A program made the translations under genes and the position numbers. From the NCBI GenBank assembly GCA_039621445.1, contig CP154954.1:24564954-24628953 (forward strand): a DNA stretch of 64,000 nt, read 5' to 3'. Below are positions 8,801-56,100 of the stretch, piece by piece (within the stretch, counting starts at the first letter, position 1; every line of letters starts with the position of its first letter). This stretch comes from Euglena gracilis (lineage: Eukaryota). Under the pieces are notes generated by a model, which had not been told where the DNA came from, did no database searches, and was given only the letters and a program-made list of their open reading frames with translations.

Positions 8801-9356
<556 letters not shown>

Positions 9357-9803
9357 GCAGCCTGCTCTGAGCCGTACGGGCAGCTTGGCAGTCGCTGTGA
9401 ACCCTTTAGAAAACAGCCCGCCCCAGCCCCGGGGGGTTCTGCGGCGGGTGGCTGTCTTTGGAAACGGTATCGCACCCCCCCCCCCAGGTTTTCCTGCACC
9501 AATTTCAAGGGAAGTTACGAAGCCCCCGTGCACTTTACGGTGCCGCTGCAGCGGAGAGGGGACTTGCGCCGCCGCCACCACCGCCAGCCACCTCCTGCCA
9601 CGACGACCCAACCCCTTTCCACTCGCTCCTACAGGACAGGGCGGCTGCCCAGCTGCCCTACCAGTGCTAGCAAAGGCCCGGCAAGGACGTCTCAGGAGAG
9701 TTGGATGACCAGGCCCAGATGCAGCTGTGAGGTAAAAGGACCGAAAACAAGAATGCTGGGGGGGGAGGAAGCTGTATGCAAGTGCCATATATGGCACGAA
9801 CCC

Positions 9804-10075
9804 GGGTGAGGGTAGGGGGGGGGGGGGGGGGGGGGGGGGTAGGGGGGGGGGGGGGGTAGGGGGGGGTAGGGGGGTAGGGGGGTAGGGGGTAGGGGGGGGG
9901 GTAGGGGGGGGGGGGGTAGGGGGGGGTAGGGGGGGCAAGGGGGGGGGTAGGGGGGGGTAGGTAGGGGGTAGGGGGGGGCAAGGGGGGGGTTAGGGGGGGT
10001 GGGGGGGGAAGGGTTGGGGGGGGGGGGGGGGGGGGTAGGGGGGTAGGGTAGGGGGTAGGGGGGGGTAGGGGGGGG
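9804..10075. repeat. G-run tract punctuated by TA (G-quadruplex-prone)
   Basis: Directly visible. A similar tract lies at about 26450-26636. Confidence 0.9.
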
Positions 10076-14449: not shown

Positions 14450-15670
14450 TTTTGAGCCGAAACGAGCGGCGTTTTTCGACCCGCCAGCGCGCCCCGTTTT
14501 TGGGGCCGCCGACCCATTGACTTTGGGTCAAAACCGGGTCGAAAAAGTCGAAAAATCGAAAAGTTTTTTGGCCAATTGGGTCCGTTTTAGGCCATTTTGA
14601 AAAAAATCGAAAAATTTTTTTTGCCCGAAACGATGTTTTTTGGCCTCCCGGACCCGGAAAAACTGTTTTTGAGCCGAAAACGAGCGTTTTTCGACCCGCC
14701 AGCGCCCCGTTTTGGGCCGCCGACCCATTGACTTTGGGTCAAAACCGGGTCGAAAAAGTCGAAAAAAATCGAAAAAAATTTTTTTTTCCGCGAAAAGATG
14801 TTTTTTGGCCTCACGTAACCGGAAAAAACGTTTTTGAGCAAAAAACGAGCGTTTTTCTAACTGACATCGCCCCGTTTTGGGCCGCTGACACATTTACTTT
14901 GGGTCAAAACCGGGTCGAAAAAGTCGAAAAAAATTTTTTTTTTTTTTGCCCGAAACGATGTTTTTTGGCCTCCCGGACCCAGAAAAACTGTTTTTGAGCC
15001 GAAAACGAGCGTTTTTCGACCCGCCAGCGCCCCGTTTTGGGCCGCCGACCCATTGACTTTGGGTCAAAACCGGGTCGAAAAAGTCGAAAAAAATCGAAAA
15101 AATTTTTTTTCCCCAAACGATGTTTTTTGGCCTCCCGGACCCGGAAAAACTGTTTTTGAGCCGAAAACGAGCGTTTTTCGACCCGCCAGCGCCCCGTTTT
15201 GGGCCGCCGACCCATTGACTTTGGGTCAAAACCGGGTCGAAAAAGTCGAAAAAAATCGAAAAAGTTTTTTTTTTGCCCGAAACGATGTTTTTTGGCCTCC
15301 CGGACCCGGAAAAACTGTTTTTGAGCCGAAAACGAGCGTTTTTCGACCCGCCAGCGCCCCGTTTTGGGCCGCCGACCCATTGACTTTGGGTCAAAACCGG
15401 GTCGAAAAAGTCGAAAAAAATCGAAAAAATTTTTTTGCCCCAAACGATGTTTTTTGGCCTCCCGGACCCGGAAAAACTGTTTTTGAGCCGAAAACGAGCG
15501 TTTTTCGACCCGCCAGCGCCCCGTTTTGGGCCGCCGACCCATTGACTTTGGGTCAAAACCGGGTCGAAAAAGTCGAAAAAAATCGAAAAAACAATGTTTT
15601 TGGGCCTCCCGGACCCGGAAAAACTGTTTTTTGAGCCGAAAACGAGCGTTTTTCGACCCACCGGCGCCCT
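14450..15670. repeat. Tandem array, unit about 162-165 bp, about 7 copies
   Basis: The marker GAAAACGAGCG recurs at 14676, ~14840, 15001, 15163, 15328, 15490 and 15638. Confidence 0.95.
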
Positions 15671-16469
15671 GTTTCTGGCACAAAACCCATGGATTTCAGG
15701 CAAAAGAGCTCCATGGAGTGGGCCGGTATGTATGGAGGGGTCGCTGAGCTCTTATCCCTTTATGGGTAAGAGCGAAGCTTACCACTGGGGGAAACCCCCC
15801 CCCCCCCCCCCCCCCTCCCCCCCCCCCTCGGGGCCACCTCGGGAACCGGCGGATTATCACCATGATCCCGGCCCCGTTCCCGAAAAATTTTTTTTCAGTC
15901 ACGAGCGACTGGATTCCTAGTTTCCGAATCACCTGGGTTTGACCCCCAACTCCCCGCCAGGCCCGAGTTATTCACGCGCGAAGGGGTCCAAACTGGGTAG
16001 GATTCGCCAACCCCCCCTGGATAAGCCCCCCCCCCCTTTGGACGGCCAAAAAATGTCAATTTTCAAAATATCTCCAAAATGAAGCAAAATCAAAGGAAAT
16101 GTCCGGAGACCTAATTTGAAGCCCTTGGAACGCCCCATCTACCGGTATTTTGATTTCCCCGCAACGCCCCGTCTAGCCCGAGATACGGCCGTTTTCGGCG
16201 CAGCTGGCCGTTTTGTACACTTTTCCCTCTGTTCGACTTAGCCGTTTTGGGGGGTGGGGGGTCAAAAAATCGATGTTTTCAAAATTTCTCGAAAATGATG
16301 CAAAATCAAAGGAAATGTCCAGAGACCTAAATTGAAGCCCTTGGAACGTCTACTGTGATTTTGGTTTCATCGCAGCTCACCGCCTAGCCCGAGATACGGC
16401 CGTTTTTCGGCCAATTTTGGCCATTTTGTACACGTTTTCCACTGTTCGACTTAGCCATTTTCGGCCAAA

Positions 16470-17280
16470 AAAATCGAAAAAAATCGAAAAATTTTTTTTG
16501 CCCAAAACGATGTTTTTTAGCCTCCCGGACCTGGAAAAACTGTTTTTGAGCCGAAAATGAGCGTTTTTCGACCCGCCAGCACCCCGTTCTGGGCCGCCAA
16601 CCCATTGACTTCGGGCCAAAACCGGGTCAAAAAAGTCGAAAAAAATCGAAAAAAATTTTTTGCCCAAAACGATGTTTTTTAGCCTCCCGGACCTGGAAAA
16701 ACTGTTTTTGAGCCGAAAATGAGCGTTTTTCGACCCGCCAGCACCCCGTTCTGGGCCGCCAACCCATTGACTTCGGGCCAAAACCGGGTCAAAAAAGTCG
16801 AAAAAAATCGAAAAAAATTTTTTTGCCCAAAACGATGTTTTTTGGCCTCCCGGACCCGGAAAAACTGTTTTTGAGCCGAAAATGAGCGTTTTTCGACCCG
16901 CCAGCGCCCCGTTCTGGGCCGCCAACCCATTGACTTCGGGCCAAAACCGGGTCAAAAAAGTCGAAAAAAATCGAAAAAAATTTTTTTGCCCGAAAAAAGA
17001 AAAAAAAAAGAAAAATAAATAAAAAAAAAAAAAAATATTTTTTGCCCAAAACGATGTTTTTTGGCCTCCCGGACCCGGAAAAACTGTTTTTGAGCCGAAA
17101 ATGAGCGTTTTTCGACCCGCCAGCGCCCCGTTTTGGGCCGCCAACCCATTGACTTCGGGCCAAAACCGGGTCAAAAAAGTCGAAAAAAATCGAAAAAAAT
17201 TTTTTTGCCCGAAACGATGTTTTTTGGCCTCCTGGACCCGGAAAAGGGGTTTTCGAGCCGAAAATGGGCGTTTTTCGACC
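16470..17280. repeat. Second array of the ~162-bp unit (about 4-5 copies, resumes at 18690-18905)
   Basis: Same unit with array-specific variants (AATGAGCG, ACTTCGGGCC). Confidence 0.93.
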
Positions 17281-17282
17281 AT

Positions 17283-18686
17283 AATGGCCATCATGGCCCG
17301 TGATGGCCATGATGCGCATCATGACCGGTGATGCCAATGATGCCAATCATGGGTCATAATGTGCATGATGACCCATGATGACCATCATGGGCAATGATGG
17401 CCATCATGACCAATGATGGCCATCATGACCAATGATGGCCATCATGACCAATGATGGCCATCATGATGGCCATCATGACCCAATGATGGCCATCATGACA
17501 CATGATGGCCATCATGACCAATGATGGCCATCATGACCAATGATGGCCATCATGACCAATGATGGCCCTCACATCAAATGATGGCCTTCATGACCAATGA
17601 TGAAAATAATGACCAATGATGGCCATCATGACCAATGATGGCCATCATGACCAATGATGGCCATCATGACCAATGATGGCTATCATGTGTCATGATGGAC
17701 ATGATGACAAATGATGGCCATCATGACCAATGATGGCTATCATGACCAACGATGGCCATCATGACCCATGATGTCCATCAGGACCAATGATGGCCATCAG
17801 GACCAATGATGGCCATCATGACCAATGATGGCCATCATGACCCATGATGGCCATCATGACCAATGATGGCCATCATGACCAATGATGGCCATCATGACCA
17901 ATGATGGCCATCATGACCAATGATGGCCATCATGACACATGATGGCCATCAGGACCAATGATGGCCATCAGGACCAATGATGGCCATCAGGACCAATGAT
18001 GGCCATCAGGACCAATGATGGCCATCGGGACCAATGATGGCCATCGGGACCAATGATGGCCATCAGGACCAATGATGGCCATCAGGACCAATGATGGCCA
18101 TCAGGACCAATGATGGCCATCAGGACCAATGATGGCCATCATGACCAATGATGGCCATCATGACCAATGATGGCCATCAGGACCCCTGAGGCCCATCAGG
18201 ACCAATGATGGCCATCAGGACCAATGATGGCCATCAGGACCAATGATGGCCATCATGACCAATGATGGCCATCATGACCAATGATGGCCATCATAACCCC
18301 TGATGCCCATCAGGACCAATGATGGCCATCAGGACCAATGATGGCCATCAGGACCAATGATGGCCATCAGGACCAATGATGGCCATCAGGACCCATGATG
18401 GCCATCAGGACCCATGATGGCCATCAGGACCCATGATGCCCATCATGACCAATGATGGCCATCACCACCAATGATGGCCATCACGACCCATGATGGCCAT
18501 CATGACCCATGATGGCCATCATGACCCATGATGCCCATCATGACCAATGATGGCCATCACGGCCAATGATGGCCATCATGGCCCATGATGGCCATCATGG
18601 GCCATGACGGCCATCATTGGTCATGATGGCCATCATGGGTCAACCAATGATAGCCATCATGGCCCATGATGGCCATCATGACCAAT
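17283..18686. repeat. 19-bp minisatellite ATGATGGCCATCATGACCA
   Basis: Period 19 is directly visible; each unit contains the 14-bp palindrome ATGATGGCCATCAT. Confidence 0.97.
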
Positions 18687-18917
18687 GTCAACCGGGTCAA
18701 AAAAGTCGAAAAAAATGGAAAAAATTTTTTTGCCCGAAACGATGTTTTTTGGCCTCCCGGACCCGGAAAAACTGTTTTTGAGCCGAAAATGAGCGTTTTT
18801 CGACCCGCCAGCGCCCCGTTTTGGGCCGCCGACCCATTGACTTTGGGTCAAACCCGGGTCAAAAAAGTCGAAAAAAATCGAAAAAAATTTTTGGGCCCGA
18901 AACGATTCGCTGGGACG

Positions 18918-23193: not shown

Positions 23194-24425
23194 CACATAC
23201 ATACATACATACATACATACATACATACATACATACATACATACATACATACATACATACATACATACATACATACATACATACATACAGAACAGACATA
23301 CATACACCATACAGAACGGACAGTACATACAGACAAGACATAGACATACCATACATACATACATACATACATACATACATACATACATACATACATACAT
23401 ACATACATACATACATACATACATACATACATACATACATACATACATACATACATACATACATACATGCATATACATACATACATACATACATACATAC
23501 ATACATACATACATACATACATACATACATACATACATACATACATACATACATACATACATACATACATGCATACATACATGCATGCATACATGCAGAC
23601 ATGCATACATACATACATACATACATACATACATACATACATACATACATACATACATACATACATACATACATACATACATACATACATACATACATAC
23701 ATACATACATACATACATACATACATACATACATACATACATACATACATACATACATACATACATACATACATACATACATACATACATACATACATAC
23801 ATGCATACATACATACATACATACATACATACATGCACACATACATGCATGCATACATGCAGACATGCATACATACATACATACATACATACATACATAC
23901 ATACATACATACATACATACATACATACATACATACATACATACATACATACATACATACATACATACATACATACATACATACATACATACATACATAC
24001 ATACATACATACATACATACATACATACATACATACATACATACATACATACATACATACATACATACATACATACATACATACATACATACATACATAC
24101 ATACATACATACATACATACATACATACATACATACACACATACATACATGCATACATACATACATACATACATACATGCATGCATAGATGCATGCATGC
24201 ATGCAGACATGCATACATACATACATACATACATACATACATACATACATACATGCATGCATGCATGCATGCATGCATACATACATACATACATACATAC
24301 ATACATAAATACATACATACATACATACATACATACATACATACATACATACATACATACATACATACATACATACATACATACATACATACATACGTAC
24401 GTACATACATACATACATACATACA

Positions 24426-24459
<34 letters not shown>

Positions 24460-24470
24460 CATACACACAT
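23194..24470. repeat. (CATA)n microsatellite, about 1.3 kb
   Basis: Directly visible; source of the MYVC/HTYI pseudo-ORFs. Confidence 0.98.
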
Positions 24471-25472: not shown

Positions 25473-28400
25473 TCTGCGGGGGTATAAAAATTTCGGGGGG
25501 GGGAATCGACAATTGCAGTTTTCCCACAATTTTCCACATTTTTCTGCATCCTCGATGCTCGGTTTTTTCTCTTTCCGAAACTTTTTTCGCATCAACCTGA
25601 GATGGCAGACGAGATGAGTTCCAGTCGTTCCTTGAACATTTCACAATAGAATTCAGGTTATTTTTGCCACTCTCTCGCAAGATCTGCCAAAATTCTCGGC
25701 GGGCAATTTCTTGGCATCTATTAGGTATTTTCCTGATTTCTGCTGGGAAATAATTTCTATTTAAAATTTTTTTCGCATCCTGGACCAGATTTTCATCTGG
25801 GGTCAAATTTTTCGTCAATTTTTTTGCCGTTTCCGTTTTTTTTTTACCAGCAAATTCCATCTTTTTAAAGTCAGTGTGTCCCCAAAAATAACAAAAATTG
25901 TGTTTTTAATATTTTTATGTTAAAGGCCATCAATTTTAGTCCCCCCCCCTTGTTCTGCAGTGCACTAGAAACCCCCCCTCCTTGGGGGTATGACTGAGTT
26001 GCTTCATGGGCTGCGAGTCAGGGGCCTCCCCCCTGCCCGAGAGTGTTGGCAGCCAGGGGGAAATTGTCATTTTTCAAACTCCAGGGGGGTGTTGGCGGTG
26101 GTGCTGTTGCAGAAACCCTGGCATCAAGGCCGCCAGGGTCTGGTCATTGTAAGTTTTTTTCCCCCTGCATCAGGCCCAATGCCGGCCTTTGGGAGGTGTG
26201 TGCTACCTACCCACGCCTTTGTCTTATTGCCCCCCCGCTCGTTGCCCCTCCCCCCTCCCCCCGCCCCGGTTGTTGTGGTGAGCGTGACCCCCAGCCAGGC
26301 CTTGCTGAAATGACCCAAAATGGCCTGAAATTATTTTTGACCCTCTCCCTACCTCCCTACGCTACGTAGGGGGGGGTCCTTAATAATGACTTTGAATGGC
26401 CTGAAATTCCTAAAATGGTCCAGAATGGGAGACATTCTGCTGCAGCCGTGGAGTGGGGTGGAAGGGTGAGGGGGGGGGCGGGGGGGGGCGAGGCGGGGGG
26501 AGGGGGGGGGGTAGAGAGGGGGGGTAGGGGGGGGGGAGGGGGGGGAGGGGGGGGGGGTGTGGGGGGGGGGGGGGGTGGGGGGGTGGGGGGTGTGAGGGGG
26601 GGGGAGGGTGCTCGCGAAGGGGGGGGGGGGGGGGGGTTCGGTGCCTTTTATGGATGTGGGCAGCAAACGGCGGAGTTGGCAGACGATGGCGGAGGAGCAA
26701 GCACAGTCCCACAGGGCCCATTTCTGATCCCAAATAACAATTACGTCCCCAAATCCACAATCCCCAGCCATCTCAGCCGCCACCTCCCAGCCCACAAACC
26801 AGCCCCTCTGACAAATGAACAATACACATTCAACGCCCACTTGTGTGAGCAGGCTTGTGCTCATTCGGGTGCCTACCCCACGGGGGGGGGGTGCTAGGGG
26901 CAGGCACCCCATAGCACCCCATCCGACCCCCCCCCCGGGGGTAGGGTTTTGGGGGGGGTGCCTGCCCATAGCAGGCACCCCCCCCCTCCGACCCCGGTGC
27001 CAAAGGCGCCGGGGGCCCGGAAAAGGCCATTTTCAATGAAAAGTTTTCTTGGACCAAACCCCTAAGTAATACCCCTGGGCGGGGTTCGGGCATAAACCCC
27101 AAGGGCGGTTTTTTTTTTTTTTTTTACTTTTTTTGTCTTTTATTTTGGGAACAGCATAAGCTTTTACTACCCACCCCCCTTGCCCCCTCCCCCCCCCCTC
27201 CTCCTTATGCCCCTTTTTCCTTCTTCCCACCCGCCCATGTGCTTTGACAATCCCCTACCCAAAAATTTCCTTATCTTCCACTGCCCCCCTCAAAATTAAA
27301 CCCCCCCCTGTCCATGGCCTCCTCTTTAATCGCCCCTTGCTCTGAAGTTTTCTGCGCTTCACCGTCAGGAGTCCAATTTCGGGAGTTTCCCATTCGCCTT
27401 TCTGTCCTAACCCACACATCTAGCGCCACCACACCCCCCCCGCCCCCCCCCCCAAGCCAGGCTTTCTACCCCACGCATCCACTCCCACCCCATCCCCCCC
27501 CCATCCGACCCCCCCAACAGCACCTCCCCCCAGTAATTCCCCCACCCCATCTCCCCCCCACCCCTTAAAAATCACCCCAAACCCCCAAACCCCCCCACTA
27601 CCCACAATACCCCGTACAAGTTTTTGATCACATGATGCAAAGTTGCAGTCGTCTGCAAATTTTGACTGCAATCTTGACAATCATTCCAGAAATGTAACAT
27701 ACAACTGATATTAACCCTGGGAATATTGTTCTGAGATCCGTAAAAAAATCATGCAAATCACATGCAATCAGATGACACGAAAAATCACAAACAATCCTGC
27801 GAACAGGAAAAAAGAGAAACAATTATGGGACACAATCGAAACCTCCTGTTATAACGTGCAGCGCTTTGACTGTGCACATTGTTTAAACAGACTTGCTTTT
27901 CGAGCTGGCCAAAAAGTTTTCCCAGGCGGAAACTGTCCTCATGGATATGTCCCAATTCCACCCAGGTTCCAATTTTAATACAATGCATTTTTTCTGATCA
28001 GAAACAATGCAACCAGGCAAAAAGGTCTAATATGGCCTAACATGGATTAAAATGGCTTAAAATGGCCCAAAGTGTCCTAAAGTGAGATAATTTTTGTGGC
28101 TTGAAATGTTTTCATGATGAGTCAAACGTTATTGATATGTTTACAACTTCAAACACCTGAAACAATTTTTTGACCCCCCTAACAAAAGCGCCGGCCCGCT
28201 TCAAGCCCAGGGTCCAAATAAAAGCGCACCCCCCCCCCCCGCCAACGGCGGCGGTGCACTACAAGCGCATCCCCCATTTTGATGGGATTTCTGAAGGAAA
28301 TCAACAAGAATCGTGCAGGTAGGGTCCAAATAGAAGCACACCCCCCCACCCCACGGCTGCCGGAGGCGGTGGTCCGCTGTAAGCGCACCCGTGCTTCTAT

Positions 28401-38773: not shown

Positions 38774-39041
<268 letters not shown>

Positions 39042-46500: not shown

Positions 46501-49500
46501 GCGTTTGGTTGCATCCATGTGACTGTGATGGCGCCCACAAAGTGCCAAGACTCGGGTTGCAACACATGTTCAGGTATGTGTGTGTGGTGGCCAGACCATT
46601 GGTTAACACCTGTCCCACCCCACCCCCCCGGGGGGGGGGGGTGACTGACTGGGCTTTTCAGAGTGACTGACTGGTTTTTTGGCCGTGACCAAGCACCAAT
46701 AGCTAAAATGGCCTAAAATGGCCTAAAATGGCCTAAAATGACTTTTTGACCCCCTATAGGTGGGGGTCCCTAAAATGGCCTAAAATGGCCTAAAATGGCC
46801 TAAAGTGGCCTAAAATGGGAAAAATTTTGTTGCACAACAATTTTTTTTGTGAACAGCTGTAGCCATTCAGGTACTGACTTTTGATGTCTTTTGTCAATCT
46901 GGACGGCGAACAGTGGATTTGGTGGAGGAGCACAGCCCGCAAGGCCCTTTTTTTTTATCCCAACTAATAATAGTATCAGTCCCCAAATCCACAGTCCCCA
47001 AGCTTCTTTTGGTAGCTGAATTTTAAAGGTTTGGACAGCATATTTTTCTTACTCCCATCCTTTTTTGGTGTGCAACGATGTCTGTTTCGCAAATAATGAA
47101 ACAGTGCAAAATTGGAATGAGGCGTGGGGAAAAAGACAGAAAAAAAGATGAAAGATGTTAGAAAAACTCAATTGAAAGAGGTGTATCATTAGGTACTGGG
47201 AATTTCTTCAAATCATGAACCAGCACAATTTTGGGGATTTTCCAAAACCACAAATAATCACGCCGAATGATCAAATGACCTAAACAACTACAAACAATTA
47301 TGAATGAGATTCTCTCTTATTTATGAACATGTTCAGAGGGTTTTCTTTTAGTATTAAGTTTTTCTCCAAGGGGGAAACCAAACACGGAGAAGAGGAATTG
47401 TTTTCAGCTTTGCCCTTTGATCTCTGCAATCGCCCAAAAAGCCCCAAATGGCTTTTTTGAGAGTTGTTTCACTTCCCAAGTGCCCACAGATAAGTCCCTT
47501 TCATTTAATGATGGGTTATGTGGCTGCAACCCGATTTAACGTAAAACCTGGGGGTCCCCTTCTGATTTCACTAAACCCCCCCTTCAAAACCATAAGTGCT
47601 GATACCCCAGATTTTGGCTCCCCTCCTCCTTCCATTCACACTTGGTGCCTTAATTTGTGTATCTTGGCCCCAATTTTTTTTCCAAAAATTTTGCCTTTTT
47701 TTTGTACAAAGTCTGCTGAAAGTTTGACACTCGTGCAAACTTGCTCTCCCATCATCACGTCATAGTGATCCAGTGTTCATGAATTTTGCATGCTTTTTTG
47801 GATGTACATTTCTCATTACTGAATAAGAGAAGGTTCGCACACGTTATTATGCAGTTTTCGGGACAAAAATGACGCAAAATTATGATTTTCAGAACCCCCA
47901 CCTATACCTTAAAATGACCTAAAATGGCCTTAAATGGCCTAAAATGGCCTAAAATGGCCTAAAATGGGGAATTTTTTGGGCTTGATTATAGGTGCTTGGC
48001 CGTGACCACCCTCCGCCCGTGGGGTGGGGTTGGCCCGAAATCACCCAAAAGTGGCTGAGTGGCCAACTGGAAAATTTTTGGCCAAAAAATGGCCTTGAAA
48101 GTCCAAAAAGTGACTGGTTTCCCCGAGTGGCCGACCCCCCCCCCCCCCCCCCCCCCCCCCTTGCCCCCCCCCCTCCAGCCACCGCAGCCCCCCCCCCCCC
48201 CCAGGATATGCTGTGGTCCCGCCCGGGGGGGTCAAGTGACTGACTGGCTTGGCCGAAAAAAAGTGACTGACTGGTTTTTTCGGAGTGGAAAGTGACCCCC
48301 CTTCCCCCCCCCCCCGGGGGTCGCTAAGCAATGGTGTGTGTTGTGGCCCCTCGCTCTGTCCGCCGGGCTGGGGCTCGCTCCGCCGCGGCACGCCCTCCAC
48401 CCCACGGGGAACCAACCCCTGGGGGTCCAACCGGCCACCACCTTCATTCGTGCCAGCAGCTCTCAGCCGAGCTGCACTGCGGGCGCTGAAATGATGGGTG
48501 GGCCAGCGTGGCACAGCCGCGCTGAGCCGAAATGATTGGCAAAGAACTGTTGCGCAAGCTACTGGTAGTTTTTTTTGAAGAGTGTCAAAGGCCTGGAGGG
48601 GAGGGTCCGGTCCGACCCCCCCCCACCTCCATGTATCGAACCCTGCCTTGTCTTGCCCCCCCCCCCAAAACCACCCTCCCCTCCAGCAGCAGGCATCTCC
48701 CGAGGCTGCTGGGTATGGGCTGGCCGTGGGGGCCGGCGGGGCCCGTGCTGTAGCGTGGCCCACCTCCCCGAGGCCTGCCCCAAGGCCACGCACCTCGCCC
48801 ATCGCCCCGCCCAGGCTGGGGTACGGTAACTCGTTTGTGGACCGCTGGGGGCCATCCCCGAACCCCCCCCACCCCGCTTGATGGGCATCATGTGATTGGT
48901 GGTGGGTTTGTTGTGGTGGGTTGGTTCATTTCAATGTATCGAGTGTTGGTGTCTTCCATTGGATAAGAAACAACATCAATCACCACCCCAAACCGCATGA
49001 TATGACTCCTTTTTGCTTAATAGGTCGCATCCCTAGTAACTCCCTCATCAATCTTCCTTCAAGTTCATGGTCATCGGTGGTGGGCTCTACATTTAGCCTT
49101 TCTTGGGTAAGTTTTTTTTTCCTGGTTGTGCCAATTTTGGGATTGCTCAGCCAATTTCAACCGTTTTGGCCCATTTTTGGGGAATTATATGGTCACCTTG
49201 AAGTATTTTTCACAAAAAATTGGTCGAAAATACCAAAATGCACCACTGCTGCCCCGTGCGCTACAAGGCTGCTGAACGTGGACCTCAAAACGGGCCACAA
49301 TGGTTGAAAATGGATCAGTTTTTGTGTGCAATAATTTTCACCTCCCGGGGGGGGATGGGTACTGGCCGAGCCCCTGCCGGAATTTTTTTGATTTTTTTGA
49401 ATTTTTGAATTTTGACCCCAAATTTCACCCCCAATTTTGGGTCCCCCCAGCCCCCCCCCCCCAGGGGTGGGTCCGGACCCCCCTCCCCCGGGTCCTAAAA

Positions 49501-49680
49501 TTACACCTCTGAATCCTTTAGACTTTTTTGAGACAAACCTTCAGACAGTTCTCAAGTCGGAGTATCCTCCCGCCGCCTGCCCGCACCCGCATCGCCCCCC
49601 TGGTCTCCCCCCGGCCCGGCTGCCCCGCCAAGGCCTACGCCACAAGCCGGCGGCTGTCCAAACTGGAACTCACCGCCTGA
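43223..49680 (+). CDS. Multi-exon host gene, paralog 2
   Basis: Pyrimidine tract plus AG (43214-43215), then ATG 43223 (MGCAASH). Exons at about 44965-45102 (..LETNKEGFVQDEGEEEEEEEEKSP), 45520-45655 (ISLRTLSE..LLRFRVRATPGTP), ~48755-48808 (VAHLP) and ~49557-49680 (RTRIAPLVSPRP..RRLSKLELTA-stop). Matches paralog 1 block by block. Confidence 0.7.
45103..45519 (+). other. Nonconventional intron in paralog 2
   Basis: C|AGCCAGGCC ... GGCCTG-CGCCC|A. CAG at +4, CTG at -8, Y|R junctions, and in-frame SP|ISLRTLS. Confidence 0.75.
46592..48338. mobile_element. Composite TIR element (GTGACTGACTGG and AAAATGGCCT repeats) in an intron of paralog 2
   Basis: Ends CAGACCATTG / CAATGGTGTG; flanks TGTGGTGGC / TGTTGTGGC match at 8 of 9. 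Related sequence lies at about 61965-62800. Confidence 0.5.
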
Positions 49681-51418
49681 CCGCCGCGCCTTCCGCTCGC
49701 CCTTCTCCCGGTGCCCTGGACCGCCCCTCCGCCTCTCTCGGGCATGCCCCGTCCTTCCCCCGTTGGTCCGCACTTAGGCGGCCGGATTCGCATTTAAGCT
49801 TTTTTATGTTGATTTGCGCATTTGTGCAAATGTGCGAATTTTTTGATTTCGGCTGTGAAGGTCAGGGGGGTTTGAAAACACGGCGACCAGAGAGTGCGAA
49901 AAATGAGCAAAATTCTGTCATTGACGGCACGACCCCTGGGAGAAAAATGGTGGTTTTGGGTGGTCCGAAAACGGGCTTTGCACGTCGAAACCCCTGGACC
50001 TCCCCCCCCCCCCCGGAAGCGAAAACAATGCAAAAAAGCGACACAGGAACGGGACCTTTGCTGCCCTTGTTGCTCTTTTCGGCTGTCTCCCCGGGTATCC
50101 CCAAGCTGCCGGCAGTGTGCGTCCTGGGTGTTTGCCGGACTACTTTGCTTGCGGCGCCTTGGTGTGGTGTTTTTGGTGTGTTTGTTGTTGTGTTGGTGCG
50201 TGCATTTGCGCAAATAAACACAATTTTGCCCTTCAAGGATTGGGCTTTGGCGCCCATGAATTGACGCTGTCGATAAACGGCGTGGCATAGGGGCCGTGAC
50301 AGCACGGACCAGAGGGTCGTCCAGAAACATGGTCGGTTTGCCACACTGTTTGTCGACGGGACAAGTAAATGCGCGAATAAACAAAAATATGTTTATGCGC
50401 GCATTTGCGCCCATCAACACAATTTGTGTTGGTGGGCGCAAATGGGTGCATAGACACAAAGAAGAAGGGCGTGACAGACACACAACCGTCAAACTCCGGC
50501 AGCAGATTTGGTTCATTTTCGCATTTGCGCACATCGCATTTTTTTGTGGTGCAAATGCGCAAATGAACCGCATGAATAATTTTGTGCAAATTGCATCTGG
50601 TTCATTTGCGCATTTTAACCCACAAAGAAAGTGACGCGCGCAAATGCTCAAATGAACCATCAATGGAGGAGTAAAAAGCGGCTCCATTTGGCCCTCCAAC
50701 AGCTACCCTTAGTGGCTTCTGAATGGGTTCAACCCAAACAACCGCACCGTCTTCTTCAACGTCAGGTATTAGGGGGTTAATTCTACTCTGGTGACAGGAA
50801 AGTTAGAGATAGAGGATCTCCTGAAGGTGGGTGCGCAGCTACCCAATAACGGCGCACGTCTGCCGGCACCGGTTTTAGGATCCCAAGGGCCCTGCCGCTA
50901 ACCAGCGGCCTGGGCTCCGCTGCTGCAGCCACATCAGCTGCCGGGCACCCACCAGACCGGAATCAACCTCCCCGGTGCAACAACACCCAGCTTTAGCGAC
51001 CACGTTATTCCCCGCAACCGGGGCGTGAGACTGGTCTGACAACGTGGTGTTAGTGCGTGGCAACCGGCAGCCGGAGAAAGGTAGCCCTGAAGCACCCCAT
51101 TACTTTGGGCGAAGTGGTGAACCTTTACCAATGGCTTGGTTGCATGAAAGCGGTTGGACTCGCTCCCCACAAGTTATGCACAAATTGGTGTGTTTTACAT
51201 TTGTCAAGGGGAAAATGATGGAGAAAAACCAGAAAACGGACCCCGGCCCGAAACATCCTGGGTATTTCAGGTGCCAAATTTTGTCTTCTTGTGACGCAGC
51301 ACTGTTGCAGGAAAGGTGTCGAACAGTCACAGGTCGTTGCACGTCATCAATTCATTACATTTAACTTCCAAGCGAATGAGGCCAAAACAGCCGGCCTTGT
51401 GGGCGGGGAACAGCAGTA

Positions 51419-51854
51419 CCCCCCCCCCTATGTCCAACGACCCCCCTATGTCCAATGACCCCCCCCCCCCCCCCCGGTCAGAGGACACCTTTTCGGAGGT
51501 TTGACCAAATTTTTGGTCCCGGTGTGAAGCGCCGGGACGAAAAATTTTGCCCAAAAATTGGCCAAAAATTTGGCCAAAGTGCCATTTTTGACACTTTTTT
51601 GACAAAAATTTGTCAAAATTGCCCAAAATTTTCAGCGCGAAGCGCCGGAAGGGAAAATTTGGGCATTTTTGGGTGGGTTGGGTACTCATGGGGAAATTGG
51701 TGGGTACCCGGGTACCCACCAATTTTCTTTTGACCCCATGTCCAACGACCGCCCCCCCCCCCCCGGTCAGAGGACACCTTTTTGGTCACTACCCTATGTC
51801 CAACGACCCCCACCCGGTCAGAGGTTACCGGTCATTGGACATAGGGGGGGGGGG
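51419..51854. mobile_element. TA-flanked MITE nested in the cargo element
   Basis: TIR C-run-TATGTCCAACGACC / GGTCATTGGACATA-G-run, with TA at 51417-51418 and 51855-51856. Confidence 0.85.
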
Positions 51855-51881
51855 TACAAATGTACACACGTAAATGCGCAC

Positions 51882-52528
51882 TGGCGAGAGCGGAACACAG
51901 CATTTACAAGGTACGCTGTGTCTGAACAAGCAAGCAAGGTTGACAGAGATGAAGAAGATACATCAGAGTATTCACTGGGAGAGTACGAAGTCGATCAGCA
52001 AGTCGATTGCGTACTGTACGAAAGAGGAAACCAGACACGGTAATCGACATGGCTGAAGAGCTTGACTTGACTGCGCCCTACGGCTGGCAGTTGGCGGTGA
52101 TGAACATCATCGCCAGGCCTGTATGCAAGAGAAGCATATACTGGTTTTGGGAACCCGACGGCAACGTTGACAAATCGGAGCTTTGCAGTTGGCTGGTGGC
52201 TAAGCATAATGCACTCATGCTTTCGGGGAGACCAACTGATATGTATCATATGATATCCAAATTTCCGAAAAAAAGGAAGCTCATGACTATCGATCTCCCA
52301 AGATCCGCACGAGAGTGTGTGAATTATGAAGCTATCGAACATATCAAGAACGGCCTAGTATTTAGTTGTCAGGTACAGTTTAACAGACCTCACGTGATAG
52401 GCTTTTCAAACGCAAAACCATTTACACACCAGATGAGCACAGATAGATGGTACGTCATCGATATCAGAGAACTCATGAAGAACCCGAAGTCGCACGACGA
52501 AATAATTCAACGTAGTAAGTTAGCTTAA
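51882..52528 (+). pseudogene. rep: Endogenous CRESS-DNA virus Rep (HUH endonuclease plus SF3 helicase), 5'-truncated and frameshifted
   Basis: RCR motif II (GTQHLQG) and motif III (YCTKEET), then a frameshift near 52040. Walker A WEPDGNVDKS (G to D), Walker B TIDLPRS, YEAIEHIKNG, motif C HVIGFSN and Arg finger STDRW. Motif I is absent. Confidence 0.9.
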
Positions 52529-53113
52529 TAGTTAGATCAAAAGAACTGTTGGTAGTATCAGCAGTAGCTACATAGGGTATAATATAACACATATGCGCTG
52601 GACTCTCATCGTATCGTGATGCAAACTTATCAGATGTCTTCACCGTCATAGGTTTCTCACCGGTAAGCTTTGACACAGACAGATAACCAGTCAAACGCAG
52701 ATTGCTCTTATTTCCTAAGGAGTTACTTCCTCGAACCCATCGGTGATTTTTCTTCTCCGTGGCTAGCTCAAGCTGAGTATCAGGATCATTTACATGACTC
52801 AAACGAACACCGAGCCAGAAGGCTCTCTGTGATTGACAGCTGGTGCACGAAATATCGTACTTGATTCCAAACACTCTGTATCCCAGATAGAACTGAGGCA
52901 TCCATTGATCAAACAGGTAGGCTTGATGACCATTGCCATCAGTGCGTGGCATGTAAATGGACGTCTGGTACTGTAAGCCCGAGTTGATTATACTGGAATT
53001 CGCAACGTAGTGTTGGATGTCGACATAGTTGAGTTTAGTGAAAATCCTATCAGGCAGGCCGCGAGTAATATATGAGGTAGATGGACGTGCCGTAACCTTA
53101 CGCCCGAAAGTGC
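52473..53113 (-). pseudogene. cap: CRESS-DNA virus capsid-like ORF, 5'-truncated, otherwise open
   Basis: About 210 open codons convergent with and overlapping rep. GLPDRIFTKLNY, YRVFGIKY and FDLTIKLTYYVELF resemble CRESS jelly-roll capsid motifs. No ATG and no basic N-terminal arm. Confidence 0.75.
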
Positions 53114-56100
53114 AAATGCGCACACAAACACACCTATCACGTTCAAAAGCCTCGTAGGTCCGTGGTAATAATCAGTGTGTTTTAAGACAGATATGTTGTT
53201 CGTTGCACGCCATTGCACAAACCATCCACATACCAGTTTCCCCAAGACGTTGGTGCGCACAAATGCGCCCATAAACAAATTATGTTTGTGCGCTCATTTG
53301 CGCCCACAAACATGTATTTTTACCTTCAACGTTTTGCATTTTATTTGTGCAAGTGCGCAAATAAACATATTGTGTTTATTTGCGCAAATACGCGCATAAA
53401 CACACATCAGTTGCATGACGGCTGACGTAGTCTGTAGCATCTGATCTAATAAGGCTCCGTGTGTTCCTACGGGCGGCTGCAGTATCCAAGCCAGTTCAGG
53501 CACCGTGACAGCACCAGTGCCAATAGTCGTAACAGTGGGTGTGTGCTTCCAACCTGTTTGATGCACGAGAGCACCAATCTCTCCCTCCACCCCCTTCACG
53601 TCATTTGGTAAGCGGCATTTGCACCAAACCTCCTGGAGTTGATCCCCTTCAACACAGGGTTGCCACAGTTCATAAATTGTTTTCCGTCTGTCAGGGTACA
53701 GGGTCCCAGAAATTTCGTAAAAATTGTAAATTTGCGCAAATGCGCCCATTTCAAAGAAAAAACCCTTGCGAATCCTGCCGCCTAAGCCGCACCCACCCCG
53801 CCCCCTCCCTTTCGCCTCCTGGGCCGCCCGCTCCTCCAATCGCATGCACAGCCGTCTCAGCCGCACCTCCGCATCCGCCATCCAGTGGAATCCGGTGGAC
53901 GTGCAAGTCAGCCCTCAGCCTCAGCCCATCGCCGGGCAATGTCGTTCCAGGGGGGGGGGGGTTGCCATTGTCTGGGCCCAGAGACTGTTGGAGAGTTGTG
54001 TCTGGCTGGACCCCCCACCCGTCGGGTTCCCTACTACACGTTGTTCCCTACTACACGTTGTTCCCTACACGTCGGGTTCCCTCCTCCCTCCCTCACCCCC
54101 CTCCCATTTTTTGAGACCACAAAATTACCCCCCCCCCCCCGGTCTTCGCCGAGCCCCCCACCCACCGGCAAAACCCGGGCTGGACCGAGAAATTTTTGGA
54201 GCAAGGCGCCGAAATTTTTTGGAAATGGGGTCCAAAATTGCTTCAAAAAACGGCATTTTTGGGTCGTTTTCGGATTTCAAATTTTGGATAAAAAAATGCC
54301 AACTGGCTGGGTTTGGGCTCTGGGGGGTATTGTTTGGGTACCAGCCAGGTCCAGCTCCCAGCCGGCCGGACCCCCCCCCCCGGACCCTCCACCCCTGGGG
54401 GGGGGTCCAGCCAGCACCTTTTCCAGCCGGTCCGCGGGACCCCACCCCCCGGGGTGCTTAAGAAAACCCCCAGTGGTGGCTGGCTGGCCGACCGGGTGGG
54501 TGCCAAATCGGACCCCCTAGGTCGTGAGAAAGCTTGGCTCCTCACGCCCGTCGGGTTGGCTTCCCAACCCAAGTCACCCCATTCCTCCTGGGAAGGAATG
54601 GAGGGGGCGGCCCCCGGATCTTTTCGACGCCCCTCCCCCCTTTGGGCCGCGCCTCTGCCATGTGTGCCTCTTGCCTGTCGGGGTCCCGCCGCTTGCCCCC
54701 GCCCCCCTCTCCCGGCTTGCCCGGTTTGGTCTGTATGCTCGCTCTGACGCTCTGAAGCGGCTGCAACGATCGGCGGTCGGAGGCGGGGGAAGGTTCTGGG
54801 TGGGGCCGGGGCTGGAAGGAATCCCTGGACCCTATGGTGGTGGGCGGGAGCACACAATCACTTGGTCGTTGGCCAACCCCCCTGAGGGGTGGGTGACTGA
54901 TTTTTTTTCCAGATTGGACTGACGTTTTCTTTTTTTTTTGGCCCGGTCGACCCCTTCCCCTGAGGGGGGAGGGGTCGACAGAAATCACTTAAGTGGACAG
55001 GCATCGAAGGCGTGGAAAAATTCCTCACCCACAAAAATTTTTGTGTCCAAAATGAACTGCATTACTGTACCACAATTTCTGCCCTAGGTGGGGGTTCATA
55101 GAATCATAATCTGGGTTTTTCTTTTGTCCCAAATCCGCATCAATTGAAACAGTTGCATGGTGAGGGTGGACCCCTGTCCAGGTCGGTGGGGCGCGGTCCA
55201 ACCCCCGCTTCCCATTTTTCCGAGCCGCCGGTTCTTAGGTCAAATCTTTCCTCGTGAACCGCCATACGGTGGGTTGGGCCGGGTTTCCTGTGCAGACAGC
55301 GGTGGGTGGGGCAAACGCCTGTGCGCACGTCGCCCAAGGCCGACGCCCCCATCCTCCTGGGTGGCCGTCCGTGCGTCTGTGTGGCCGCCGTGCCCCCCGC
55401 TCTGTCGGGCGGCGCGGCTTCCCCACAGCCAAGGCCCTCCTGCTCCCCATCCGGCCGCTTGTCCTTCTGACTGTTCTGTTGGGGGATTGGGGCATTGTCT
55501 GTGATTGATTCCCTGTTGTCTGACACCCTTTTTTTAAAAGAAATAATCTTTGGTGATCTTTGCGAGCGGCCGAGCTCAGGTAACGGCCGGGGGCGGTCCC
55601 GACCTAAATTTCAAACTGCCACATTACGCCTCCAACGGCTGAGGCATTCGTTTCGTAAGGGCGTCTTTTTTGATGCCAAAGGCTCCATGAAGCGAAGGCC
55701 GCACAAACGCCTTATCCCAACCAGAATGATGGTCCACAAAACACTCAATGACTTTCGTCACATTCCCAATTGCAGGGCAGTGTTGGCGGCGCCAAACCTC
55801 GGTTGCTTGTCCTCCCTCCGCCACCACCCCCCTCCCTCGCCTCGCCTCGGACTGCCTGGCCTCCCCGCGGCCGGGGTCTGGGGTCGGCCTGCCACACTCT
55901 GTCCCACCCCTCGGCCAGGCTTCCAGATCAGATTTTTACCCAAGGCCAATTTGCATCATATTTGAACGTTTTCCCTTTTTTTTGCCAACAAATTCCATAC
56001 ATTTGGCATCAGTATGTACAAAAATCACAAAAAACCTTGGTTTGAGACTTTTTTTGAAAAAAGGAAAATGTGAATGCCAGTTCAAGACAAGCACCCATTT

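What the first reader, a model, noticed from the sequence alone, without database searches (positions are those of the whole stretch)
49768..53791. Pack-type TIR element of unclear superfamily carrying a ssDNA-virus genome fragment
Seen: CTTAGG...CCTAAG termini, a 5-bp TSD, no transposase, and an interior that is a mosaic of non-repetitive segments lacking the host's homopolymer runs, including CRESS rep and cap. Known: Pack-MULEs and similar elements capture host gene fragments. These termini with a 5-bp TSD do not fit hAT (8 bp), MULE (about 9 bp), Tc1 (TA) or Transib (CAC ends). Inference: a possibly new family that captures and spreads viral DNA.
Basis: partly seen in the sequence, partly recalled or inferred. 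Interest (0 to 1): 0.85.

Follow-up and report, generated by a model that had tools for sequence, protein, structure and literature searches.

The report
Virus fossil inside an abundant transposon
One old copy of a very abundant cut-and-paste transposon holds a decayed, single-copy fragment of a small circular DNA virus, so this is a viral fossil lodged in junk DNA and not a transposon that spreads viral genes.

Summary
The anatomy is real. The 20-nt inverted ends CTTAGG...CCTAAG match 19/20 and are flanked by a 5-bp duplication, CCGCA. There is no transposase. Inside lie a truncated CRESS-virus rep and an almost whole cap.

In three independent DNA runs of the same organism, the viral piece (about 51882-53113) has the depth of the single-copy flanks. 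Every other part of the element is 440 to 29,000 times deeper. About 60-94 contigs per run and end break off exactly at one of the two ends into different flanks. So the family has thousands of copies, and the viral cargo sits at one locus only.

The interior is not "non-repetitive". It consists of palindromic GCGCAAATGCGC-type subterminal repeats, a high-copy middle segment and a nested TA-flanked MITE.

The viral piece is bracketed by the only two AAATGCGCAC 10-mers in the window, which points to one insertion event into element sequence. The rep is decaying: motif I is missing, a Walker-A glycine is replaced, and there are strain-specific indels and a frameshift. No RNA reads were seen on it.

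The best reading is an endogenous viral element (EVE) lodged in a resident non-autonomous transposon. The transposon's superfamily cannot be assigned, because no genome or autonomous partner was available.

The parts
49768..49772 (.). Left copy of the 5-bp target-site duplication CCGCA
   Evidence: identical pentamer directly outside both ends.
49773..49792 (+). Left terminal inverted repeat CTTAGGCGGCCGGATTCGCA. The likeness to the right end runs on to about 49805 if a 4-nt gap is allowed.
   Evidence: (I19). In (X1; X14) contigs break off exactly before 49773 into unlike flanks (agreement 0.33).
49801..50660 (.). Left subterminal region: GCGCAAATGCGC-type repeats and two long palindromes (50390-50456 with 33-nt arms; 50509-50659 with 66-nt arms)
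   Evidence: D1, D2, I1, I4; 8 motif matches, all inside the element, 0.27 expected. DNA hairpins with z -8.8 and -8.7. High-copy.
50661..51418 (.). High-copy interior segment with no coding signal
   Evidence: depth 3.3-4.0e5 in X1 against about 75 baseline; no Pfam family; no Rfam family near its threshold.
51419..51854 (.). Nested MITE with TA duplication (51417-18 and 51855-56) and ends C10-TATGTCCAAYGACC
   Evidence: (I10: 24 nt at 96%; I18: 20 nt at 100%). In one search it is the deepest part, up to 1.5e6 in X1.
51872..51881 (+). Left copy of the 10-mer AAATGCGCAC that abuts the viral fragment
   Evidence: this 10-mer occurs only twice in the window, here and at 53114-53123, on the same strand.
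51882..53113 (.). Endogenous CRESS-virus fragment of 1,232 nt, single-copy
   Evidence: (depth equals that of the flanks in 3 DNA runs; contigs bridge both junctions).
51874..52528 (+). Truncated, frameshifted rep. The HUH motifs II and III lie in 51874-52056. After a frame break near 52040-52050, the SF3 helicase lies in 52046-52525, with the stop at 52526-52528.
   Evidence: (PF02407, profile positions 32-82 of 82). It lacks about 65 N-terminal residues including motif I. An invariant Walker-A glycine is replaced. Five conserved residues are missing in this allele.
52473..53108 (-). cap (single jelly-roll capsid protein) lacking only the arginine-rich N-terminal arm. The frame is open in this window.
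   Evidence: residues 30-227 align to residues 35-234 of the L010 ORF; 1 of 4 family members hits Circo_capsid, E 2.6e-5; pLDDT 72, pTM 0.71; circovirus capsids first, E 1e-5, TM 0.46-0.50.
53114..53123 (+). Right copy of the 10-mer AAATGCGCAC
53124..53240 (.). Low-copy spacer of unknown origin between the viral piece and the high-copy right arm
   Evidence: X2 contig 53056-53236 with 0 differences and depth 168; no significant likeness to the rest of the element or to related viral contigs.
53241..53766 (.). Right subterminal region with the same repeat motif, high-copy
   Evidence: (D1, D2, I2-I9). In some searches the sister-copy fragments P0058-P0060 are 64-68% identical at protein level.
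53767..53786 (-). Right terminal inverted repeat, with one private mismatch
   Evidence: In one search the loose ends of 68, 70 and 61 contigs (X1, X2, X14) give a consensus that is the perfect complement of the left end, followed by different flanks.
53787..53791 (.). Right copy of the 5-bp target-site duplication CCGCA

Best explanation
A non-autonomous cut-and-paste DNA transposon inserted at CCGCA and duplicated those 5 bp. It belongs to a family with thousands of copies, marked by a 20-nt (about 33-nt with a gap) TIR starting CTTAGG and by palindromic GCGCAAATGCGC-type subterminal repeats that are presumably transposase-binding sites. The copy is old: it carries private substitutions and a nested TA-targeting MITE.

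Separately, a linear fragment of a roughly 2-kb circular Rep-encoding ssDNA (CRESS) virus was joined into the interior of this element at one copy of the element's own motif, leaving AAATGCGCAC on both sides. The fragment was opened around the origin region and trimmed into the 5' ends of both genes. The most likely route is host double-strand-break repair (end joining or a microhomology-primed template switch). Transposase and viral Rep are not the likely agents.

The result is a single-locus endogenous viral element that is inherited vertically and decays neutrally. It has not been copied by the transposon family.

Shown: the ends, the duplication, the family's abundance, the single-copy state of the viral piece, the homology of rep and cap, and the lesions in rep. 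Inferred: the order of events and the repair mechanism.
For: Ends and duplication.

Family abundance and exact termini: element bins outside the viral piece are 3.9e4-1.5e6 deep in X1, 6.0e4-2.0e6 in X2 and 1.2e4-7.8e5 in X14. Baselines from flank contigs are 70-94, 125-145 and 22-30. Between 61 and 94 contigs per run and end break off at 49773 or run through the consensus right end into unlike flanks. P0059 reads through the TIR from a different flank.

Viral piece single-copy: the five bins 51972-53056 are 71-116 deep (X1), 134-261 (X2) and 34-49 (X14). There is one contig per run at the listed variable places between 51916 and 52759. Contigs bridge the MITE-virus junction (from 51827/51828/51848) and the virus-spacer junction (X2, 53056-53236). 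Only one other contig carries it in the protein collection (P0001 and P0002). The next Rep is 59% identical.

One insertion event: the 10-mer AAATGCGCAC occurs only at the two borders.

Decay: rep lacks motif I and about 65 residues, and an invariant Walker-A glycine is replaced in both alleles seen. A frame break is present in the window but absent in P0002. A 15-nt indel and a 4-nt indel differ between runs. Of 7 listed SNPs, 4 change the protein and 3 do not.

Precedent: endogenous circular ssDNA virus sequences have been found inserted into transposons (PMC3198968, passages read).
Against: The order of events is not shown. No allele with the element but without the virus, and no empty site, was seen among the 15 joints printed of 698.

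The cap frame is open in the window and in P0001, and rep is open for 223 aa in P0002, which could hint at retention.

About 115 nt right of the viral piece is also low-copy and unexplained.

Contigs of X2 and X14 end at 53037, and depth at 53055 is 2-3.5 times baseline. A second locus or a structural allele sharing about 75 nt of the cap 5' end is therefore not excluded.

Summed contig depth is only a rough proxy for copy number, as the tool itself warns.
Confidence: 0.75

Rival explanations
1. Pack-type capture. The transposon took up the viral DNA itself, for example by template switching onto viral DNA during gap repair after an excision. It then transposed once, as a unit, to this site. 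On this reading the element is a transduplicating carrier of viral DNA that merely failed to amplify.
For: The viral piece lies between intact ends with an intact 5-bp duplication. It is bracketed by a 10-nt repeat of the element's own motif, as microhomology-primed switching would leave. A TIR transposon carrying a geminivirus-like Rep in 42 copies is on record in Tuber melanosporum (PMC3198968).
Against: The defining result of transduplication, the same cargo in several copies, is absent: depth is single-copy in 3 runs and there is one other contig in 5.8 billion proteins. Most of this genome is repeats, so a random viral integration would usually land in one. The 10-nt repeat is equally expected from ordinary break repair in a resident copy.
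Confidence: 0.15
2. Domesticated viral genes: the cap, and in some strains the truncated rep, are kept by the host for a function such as antiviral interference.
For: The cap frame is open in the window (232 codons stop to stop) and in P0001. Rep is open for 223 aa in P0002. The locus is present in all three DNA runs laid.
Against: Differences between alleles are mostly amino-acid changing: 5 of 5 between P0001 and the window cap, and 4 of the 7 SNPs listed. Rep has lost motif I and a conserved Walker-A glycine, and is frameshifted in the window. There is no ATG at the cap's 5' end, since its arm is cut off at the junction. No promoter or transcript evidence was obtained.
Confidence: 0.05
3. 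Artefact: viral contamination or a chimeric join in the assembly.
For: CRESS viruses are common contaminants of sequencing libraries (recalled, not from any call here).
Against: Independent contigs from three runs of different studies bridge both junctions at the depth of the host's single-copy DNA. The genes are truncated and mutated.
Confidence: 0.02

Closest known systems
Endogenous circular ssDNA virus (CRESS) elements in eukaryote genomes (Liu et al. 2011, PMC3198968; passages read)
   Same: Truncated, degraded Rep-like sequence integrated in non-coding, repeat-rich host DNA. That paper notes that several such insertions lie inside transposons.
   Different: Here rep and nearly the whole cap are kept together as one contiguous 1.2-kb piece. 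The nearest Reps are uncultured aquatic-type CRESS viruses, including the Rep named 'Picobiliphyte sp. MS584-5 nanovirus' (46%) and 'CRESS virus sp. ctwD22' (51%), and not geminiviruses, circoviruses or nanoviruses proper.
Geminivirus-like TIR transposon of Tuber melanosporum (Liu et al. 2011, PMC3198968)
   Same: A Rep-like viral gene between terminal inverted repeats.
   Different: The Tuber element has 42 copies more than 95% alike, transposase ORFs, 37-bp TIRs and no obvious duplication. Here the viral cargo is at one locus, there is no transposase, and a 5-bp duplication is present.
Pack-MULEs and other transduplicating DNA transposons (recalled: Jiang et al. 2004; not read here)
   Same: A non-autonomous TIR element with foreign DNA between its ends. 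The short repeat at the cargo borders is compatible with template switching.
   Different: Pack elements are recognised by cargo that is carried to several loci. This cargo is not. The cargo is viral, not a host gene fragment. The ends and the duplication are not MULE-like.
Transib (Kapitonov and Jurka 2005, PMC1131882; passages read)
   Same: A 5-bp target-site duplication at a GC-rich target.
   Different: Transib ends start with an invariant CAC within a 38-bp heptamer-spacer-nonamer TIR. This element starts CTT and has a 20-nt TIR followed by palindromic repeats. No RAG1-like transposase was found.

Membership tests
Transduplicating (Pack-type) DNA transposon | Non-autonomous element with TIRs and a target-site duplication, and no transposase | tested here: met
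   and Pfam.
Transduplicating (Pack-type) DNA transposon | Captured cargo is mobilised: the same cargo appears in two or more copies with different flanks | tested here: not met
   viral bins are at single-copy depth in 3 of 3 DNA runs, while the rest of the element is 440-29,000 times deeper; one other contig only.
Transduplicating (Pack-type) DNA transposon | Ends shared with an identified autonomous partner | not testable with these tools
   No genome is held. Exact TIR scans of the metagenome and viral collections gave 0 hits. A full HMMER search with the right-end ORF found no transposase.
Transib | 5-bp target-site duplication | tested here: met
   One copy only: CCGCA on both sides.
Transib | TIR begins with an invariant CAC (heptamer CACAATG, about 38-bp TIR) | tested here: not met
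   The end is CTTAGGC. The criterion comes from PMC1131882.
hAT | 8-bp duplication, and the third base of the end always G | tested here: not met
   The duplication is 5 bp and the third base is T. The criterion comes from PMC1131882, Figure S7 and Table S2 legends. hAT subgroups with 5-6-bp duplications are recalled from Repbase reports and were not checked.
Ginger2/TDD | TGTNR ends, and a 4-5-bp duplication | tested here: not met
   The ends are CTTAG. The criteria come from PMC2836005 and PMC10045372.
Tc1/mariner-type (Stowaway-like) MITE: the nested element 51419-51854 only | TA duplication, short TIRs and no ORF | tested here: met
   Assignment from the TA duplication rests on general knowledge.
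CRESS-DNA virus (Cressdnaviricota) Rep | HUH endonuclease motifs I-III followed by an SF3 helicase | tested here: inconclusive
   Motifs II (HLQG) and III (YCTK) and the helicase are present. Motif I is absent and a Walker-A glycine is replaced. So it is a fragment of a member and not a working Rep.
CRESS-DNA virus capsid | Single jelly-roll capsid protein encoded antisense to rep | tested here: met
CRESS-DNA virus genome | Circular genome with an origin stem-loop and nonanucleotide between the 5' ends of rep and cap | tested here: not met
   The intergenic region and both 5' gene ends are missing. The one nonamer-like word, at 53173 on the minus strand, has no stem around it.
Endogenous viral element | Viral sequence contiguous with host DNA, at host single-copy depth, shared by independent samples | tested here: met
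   3 of 3 DNA runs, with both junctions bridged.

The most novel reading that the evidence does not exclude
The element belongs to a still undescribed cut-and-paste superfamily, with a 5-bp duplication, CTTAGG ends and palindromic GCGCAAATGCGC binding repeats. This copy caught viral DNA by switching template onto a replicating CRESS genome during gap repair, and the two AAATGCGCAC copies are the footprint of that switch. That would be a first direct snapshot of how a DNA transposon acquires viral genes, caught before any spread.
Probability: 0.1. Interest if true: 0.65.

Novelty: new member of a known kind. Interest (0 to 1): 0.33.

Why it matters
A rep-plus-cap fossil fixed in a host chromosome is direct evidence that a member of this uncultured CRESS clade once replicated in the nucleus of this organism or its ancestors. 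The clade has genomes of about 2 kb and includes the virus found with a single picobiliphyte cell. Host assignment is the main gap for such viruses. The strain-specific lesions could date the integration.

The transposon family itself has thousands of copies, a 5-bp duplication and ends that fit no checked superfamily. It deserves classification once the genome can be searched.

The more exciting idea, a transposon that ferries viral DNA around the genome, is not what the data show.

Tried and rejected
2. Exact TIR scans of metagenome contigs and viral contigs: 0 hits each.
3. Self-BLAST of the element against the window: no other copy in 64 kb.
4. Full HMMER search of 1.84 billion representatives with the right-end ORF 53297-53785(-): 5 hits. 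Three are short sister-copy fragments. Two are Myb proteins matched through many short repeated stretches and judged spurious. No transposase.
5. Protein search with the ORF that spans right arm, spacer and cap 5' end (52991-53293, minus strand): no hit.
6. Rfam: nothing at gathering score. With the E-value threshold, only far-sub-threshold miRNA-like matches on the palindromes.
7. The cap against the capsid-side ORF of the nearest Rep relative, L001: no likeness (E 37). The cap's relatives sit in other contigs of the clade.
8. Profile of 4 caps against PDB sequences: 0 hits.
9. Origin nonanucleotide: one ATTATTAC-like word at 53173(-) without a stem, taken as chance.
10. The spacer 53106-53245 against the rest of the element and against 47 viral contigs: nothing above shuffles, E 0.5 or worse.
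11. Rep tree: 54 of 54 hits, quick method only because the careful search did not finish. The EVE sits on a long unresolved basal branch, so no finer placement is possible.
12. Expression: no RNA holder was listed. In the one RNA run laid (X21, about 5% of it read), 443 reads fell on repeat parts, 419 of them only partly, and none on 51972-53056. This is not evidence of silence.
13. Earlier findings of this scan: nothing by place, sequence or words.
14. Literature search for the TIR, MITE end and motif strings: only cloning-primer coincidences. A search for picobiliphyte, nanovirus and CRESS together: 0 papers.


Full report
WHAT IS THERE

Ends and duplication. The stretch 49773-53786 (4,014 nt) begins CTTAGGCGGCCGGATTCGCA and ends with the reverse complement of that 20-mer, with one mismatch (pair I19, 95%). 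With up to three mismatches the 20-mer is found only at these two places in the 64-kb window, and none is expected in 100 shuffles. CCGCA stands directly outside both ends. No other duplication length from 1 to 8 fits.

Subterminal arms. Inside both ends lie arrays of a GCGCAAATGCGC-type motif. One search finds families D1 (10 copies) and D2 (8 copies). In one search all 8 near-matches to the 15-mer lie in the element, against 0.27 expected. The left arm also has two long palindromes that fold as strong DNA hairpins (z -8.8 and -8.7).

No transposase. About 245 stop-to-stop translations of the window were scanned against Pfam, including every ORF of 50 aa or more inside the element. The only meaningful family was Viral_Rep. 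The window holds no recognisable gene and is full of satellites and homopolymer tracts.

THE VIRAL PIECE

rep.
- 51874-52056 matches PF02407 at E 5e-9, but only profile positions 32-82 of 82.
- After a frame break, 52046-52525 gives the SF3 helicase.
- A search of 5.8 billion proteins returned 54 hits. One is near-identical: P0002, 223 aa, 89% overall, on a 1,376-nt contig. The rest are at most 59% identical.
- All hits are Reps of 180-316 aa from contigs of about 1-2.3 kb. The few named ones are 'CRESS virus sp. ctwD22', 'Cressdnaviricota sp.' and 'Picobiliphyte sp. MS584-5 nanovirus'.
- Aligned with them, the window's rep lacks about 65 N-terminal residues including motif I, and starts just before HLQG. 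A glycine of the Walker-A loop that is invariant in 9 of 9 relatives is replaced. Five conserved residues are missing.

cap.
- The antisense ORF 52476-53171 has no Pfam family and only one hit in the big collection, P0001 (97%, on a contig of the same length, 1,376 nt, as P0002's).
- I fetched 46 related CRESS contigs from IMG/VR with a Rep alignment, giving 47 loci with L002, and compared their 217 ORFs with the cap.
- Four ORFs match, all about 240-280 aa and all antisense to rep: E 2e-15, 8e-10, 3e-9 and 6e-4.
- The match runs from cap residue 30 to the C-terminus, so only the arginine-rich arm is missing.
- One of the four aligned proteins hits Circo_capsid.
- A model built on that 4-sequence alignment (pLDDT 72, pTM 0.71) is a beta sandwich. 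Its best PDB matches are circovirus capsids, at E about 1e-5 and TM 0.46-0.50.

So rep and cap are real, and they form one contiguous piece of about 1.23 kb. That is a roughly 2-kb circular genome minus the origin region and the 5' ends of both genes.

HOW MANY COPIES

No genome was available, so I laid public data on 48500-55000. These were Logan contigs of three DNA runs from three studies (X1, X2, X14) and raw reads of one RNA run (X21).

Depth.
- Contigs in the unique flanks have depth 70-94 (X1), 125-145 (X2) and 22-30 (X14).
- The five bins 51972-53056 have 71-116, 134-261 and 34-49. That is the same as the flanks. At the listed variable places between 51916 and 52759 each run has one contig.
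- Every other bin of the element has 3.9e4-1.5e6 (X1), 6.0e4-2.0e6 (X2) and 1.2e4-7.8e5 (X14).
- Summed contig depth is only a rough proxy, but a gap of three to four orders of magnitude is not in doubt.

Termini. In X1, 94 contigs break off exactly before 49773 into flanks that agree at only 0.33, and in X14, 85 do. At the right end 68, 70 and 61 contigs carry the consensus end followed by different letters. That consensus is the perfect complement of the left end, so the window's mismatch is private to this copy. The family therefore has on the order of thousands of copies, with exactly these termini.

Junctions. Contigs of all three runs bridge the left flank into the element (49471-49797/8). 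They also bridge the nested MITE into the viral piece (from 51827, 51828 or 51848). An X2 contig bridges the viral piece into the right side (53056-53236 with no difference). The insertion and its viral content are therefore real and shared among samples, but present at one locus.

THE REST OF THE INTERIOR

- 51419-51854 is a MITE with a TA duplication and C10-TATGTCCAAYGACC ends. It is the deepest part of all.
- 50661-51418 is another high-copy, non-coding segment.
- A full HMMER search with the right-arm ORF found three short sister-copy fragments. One of them (P0059) reads through the TIR from a different flank and has an internal deletion. No transposase turned up.

THE JUNCTIONS OF THE VIRAL PIECE

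The exact 10-mer AAATGCGCAC occurs only twice in the window, at 51872-51881 and 53114-53123. Both copies are on the same strand and sit exactly at the two borders. It is a variant of the element's own repeat motif: 9 of the window's 11 AAATGCGC words lie in the element.

This is what one insertion event into element sequence would leave, either as a short duplication at a staggered break or as microhomology used in a template switch. It could also be two neighbouring motif copies. Sister-copy DNA would settle this.

Three things remain unexplained:
- The 115 nt to the right of the second 10-mer are low-copy and resemble neither the element nor related viruses.
- Contigs of X2 and X14 stop at 53037, where depth rises 2-3.5 fold.

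DECAY AND AGE

- The Walker-A change is shared by the window and P0002.
- The window has a frame break near 52040-52050 that P0002 lacks.
- A 15-nt indel separates X2 and X14 from the window, X1 and P0002, and a 4-nt indel separates X1 and X14 from the window.
- Of the 7 SNPs listed in the viral part, 4 change the protein. All 5 differences between P0001 and the window's cap do so.
- This looks like neutral decay after one integration that predates the split of the sampled strains.
- No reads of the RNA run fell on the viral piece. Only about 5% of that run was read, so this says little.

WHAT IT IS

The best reading (0.75) is an endogenous CRESS-virus fragment lodged in a resident copy of an abundant non-autonomous TIR transposon, put there by host break repair.

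The Pack-type reading (0.15) survives only in a weak form: this one copy may have acquired the virus before it landed here. The step that would make it interesting, spread of the cargo, is contradicted.

Domestication (0.05) and artefact (0.02) are unlikely.

COMPARISON WITH KNOWN FAMILIES

- Endogenous circular ssDNA virus sequences, some of them inside transposons, and one TIR transposon that carries and amplifies a geminivirus-like Rep, were described in 2011 (PMC3198968, passages read).
- Among DNA transposons, a 5-bp duplication is the hallmark of Transib, whose ends begin with an invariant CAC (PMC1131882).
- Ginger2 makes 4-5-bp duplications but has TGT ends (PMC10045372 and PMC2836005).
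- hAT makes 8-bp duplications, with G as the third base of the end (PMC1131882).
- This element starts CTT, so it meets none of these tests.
- One duplication from one copy, with no transposase, cannot found a new superfamily. I file it as an unassigned non-autonomous TIR family.

VERDICT

The finding is a new member of known kinds: an EVE, and an unclassified MITE-like family. Its modest value is as a host link for an uncultured CRESS clade and as a pointer to a transposon family worth classifying.

Noticed in passing
window 51419-51854: Nested MITE with a TA duplication, ends C10-TATGTCCAAYGACC and an internal 53-nt direct repeat. Its summed depth reaches 1.5e6 against a baseline of about 75 in X1, so it may be one of the most abundant repeats of this genome.
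   Followed up: partly
window 53038-53111 and beyond: Contigs of X2 and X14 end at 53037, and depth at 53055 is 2-3.5 times baseline in two contigs. This may be a structural allele or a second locus sharing the 5' end of the cap.
   Followed up: no
window 53124-53240: About 115 nt of low-copy sequence of unknown origin lies between the viral piece and the high-copy right arm. It contains an ATTATTAC word on the minus strand (53173) with no stem around it.
   Followed up: partly
window 50390-50456 and 50509-50659: Two near-perfect palindromes (33-nt and 66-nt arms) are built from the element's own motif. They might be foldback units or small nested relatives. They give sub-threshold miRNA-like Rfam matches.
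   Followed up: partly
window 14599-17214: A 162-nt satellite in two arrays. One ORF through it gives a MobA_MobL hit just above Pfam's cut-off (28.6 against 26.7 bits) with no stretch passing on its own. This is most likely a composition artefact.
   Followed up: no
window 8802-10075, 17284-18687, 23195-24470, 26464-26636, 38777-39040: Very long simple repeats: (GT)n of 550 nt, G-rich tracts of about 260 and 170 nt, a 19-nt minisatellite of 1.4 kb, (ACAT)n of 1.3 kb and a T-rich tract of 264 nt. The whole window has no recognisable gene.
   Followed up: no
window 51916-52759 (viral locus) in runs X1, X2, X14: At the listed variable places between 51916 and 52759 each run shows a single contig, with strain-specific indels. 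This suggests haploid or homozygous samples and a locus that could serve as a strain marker.
   Followed up: no
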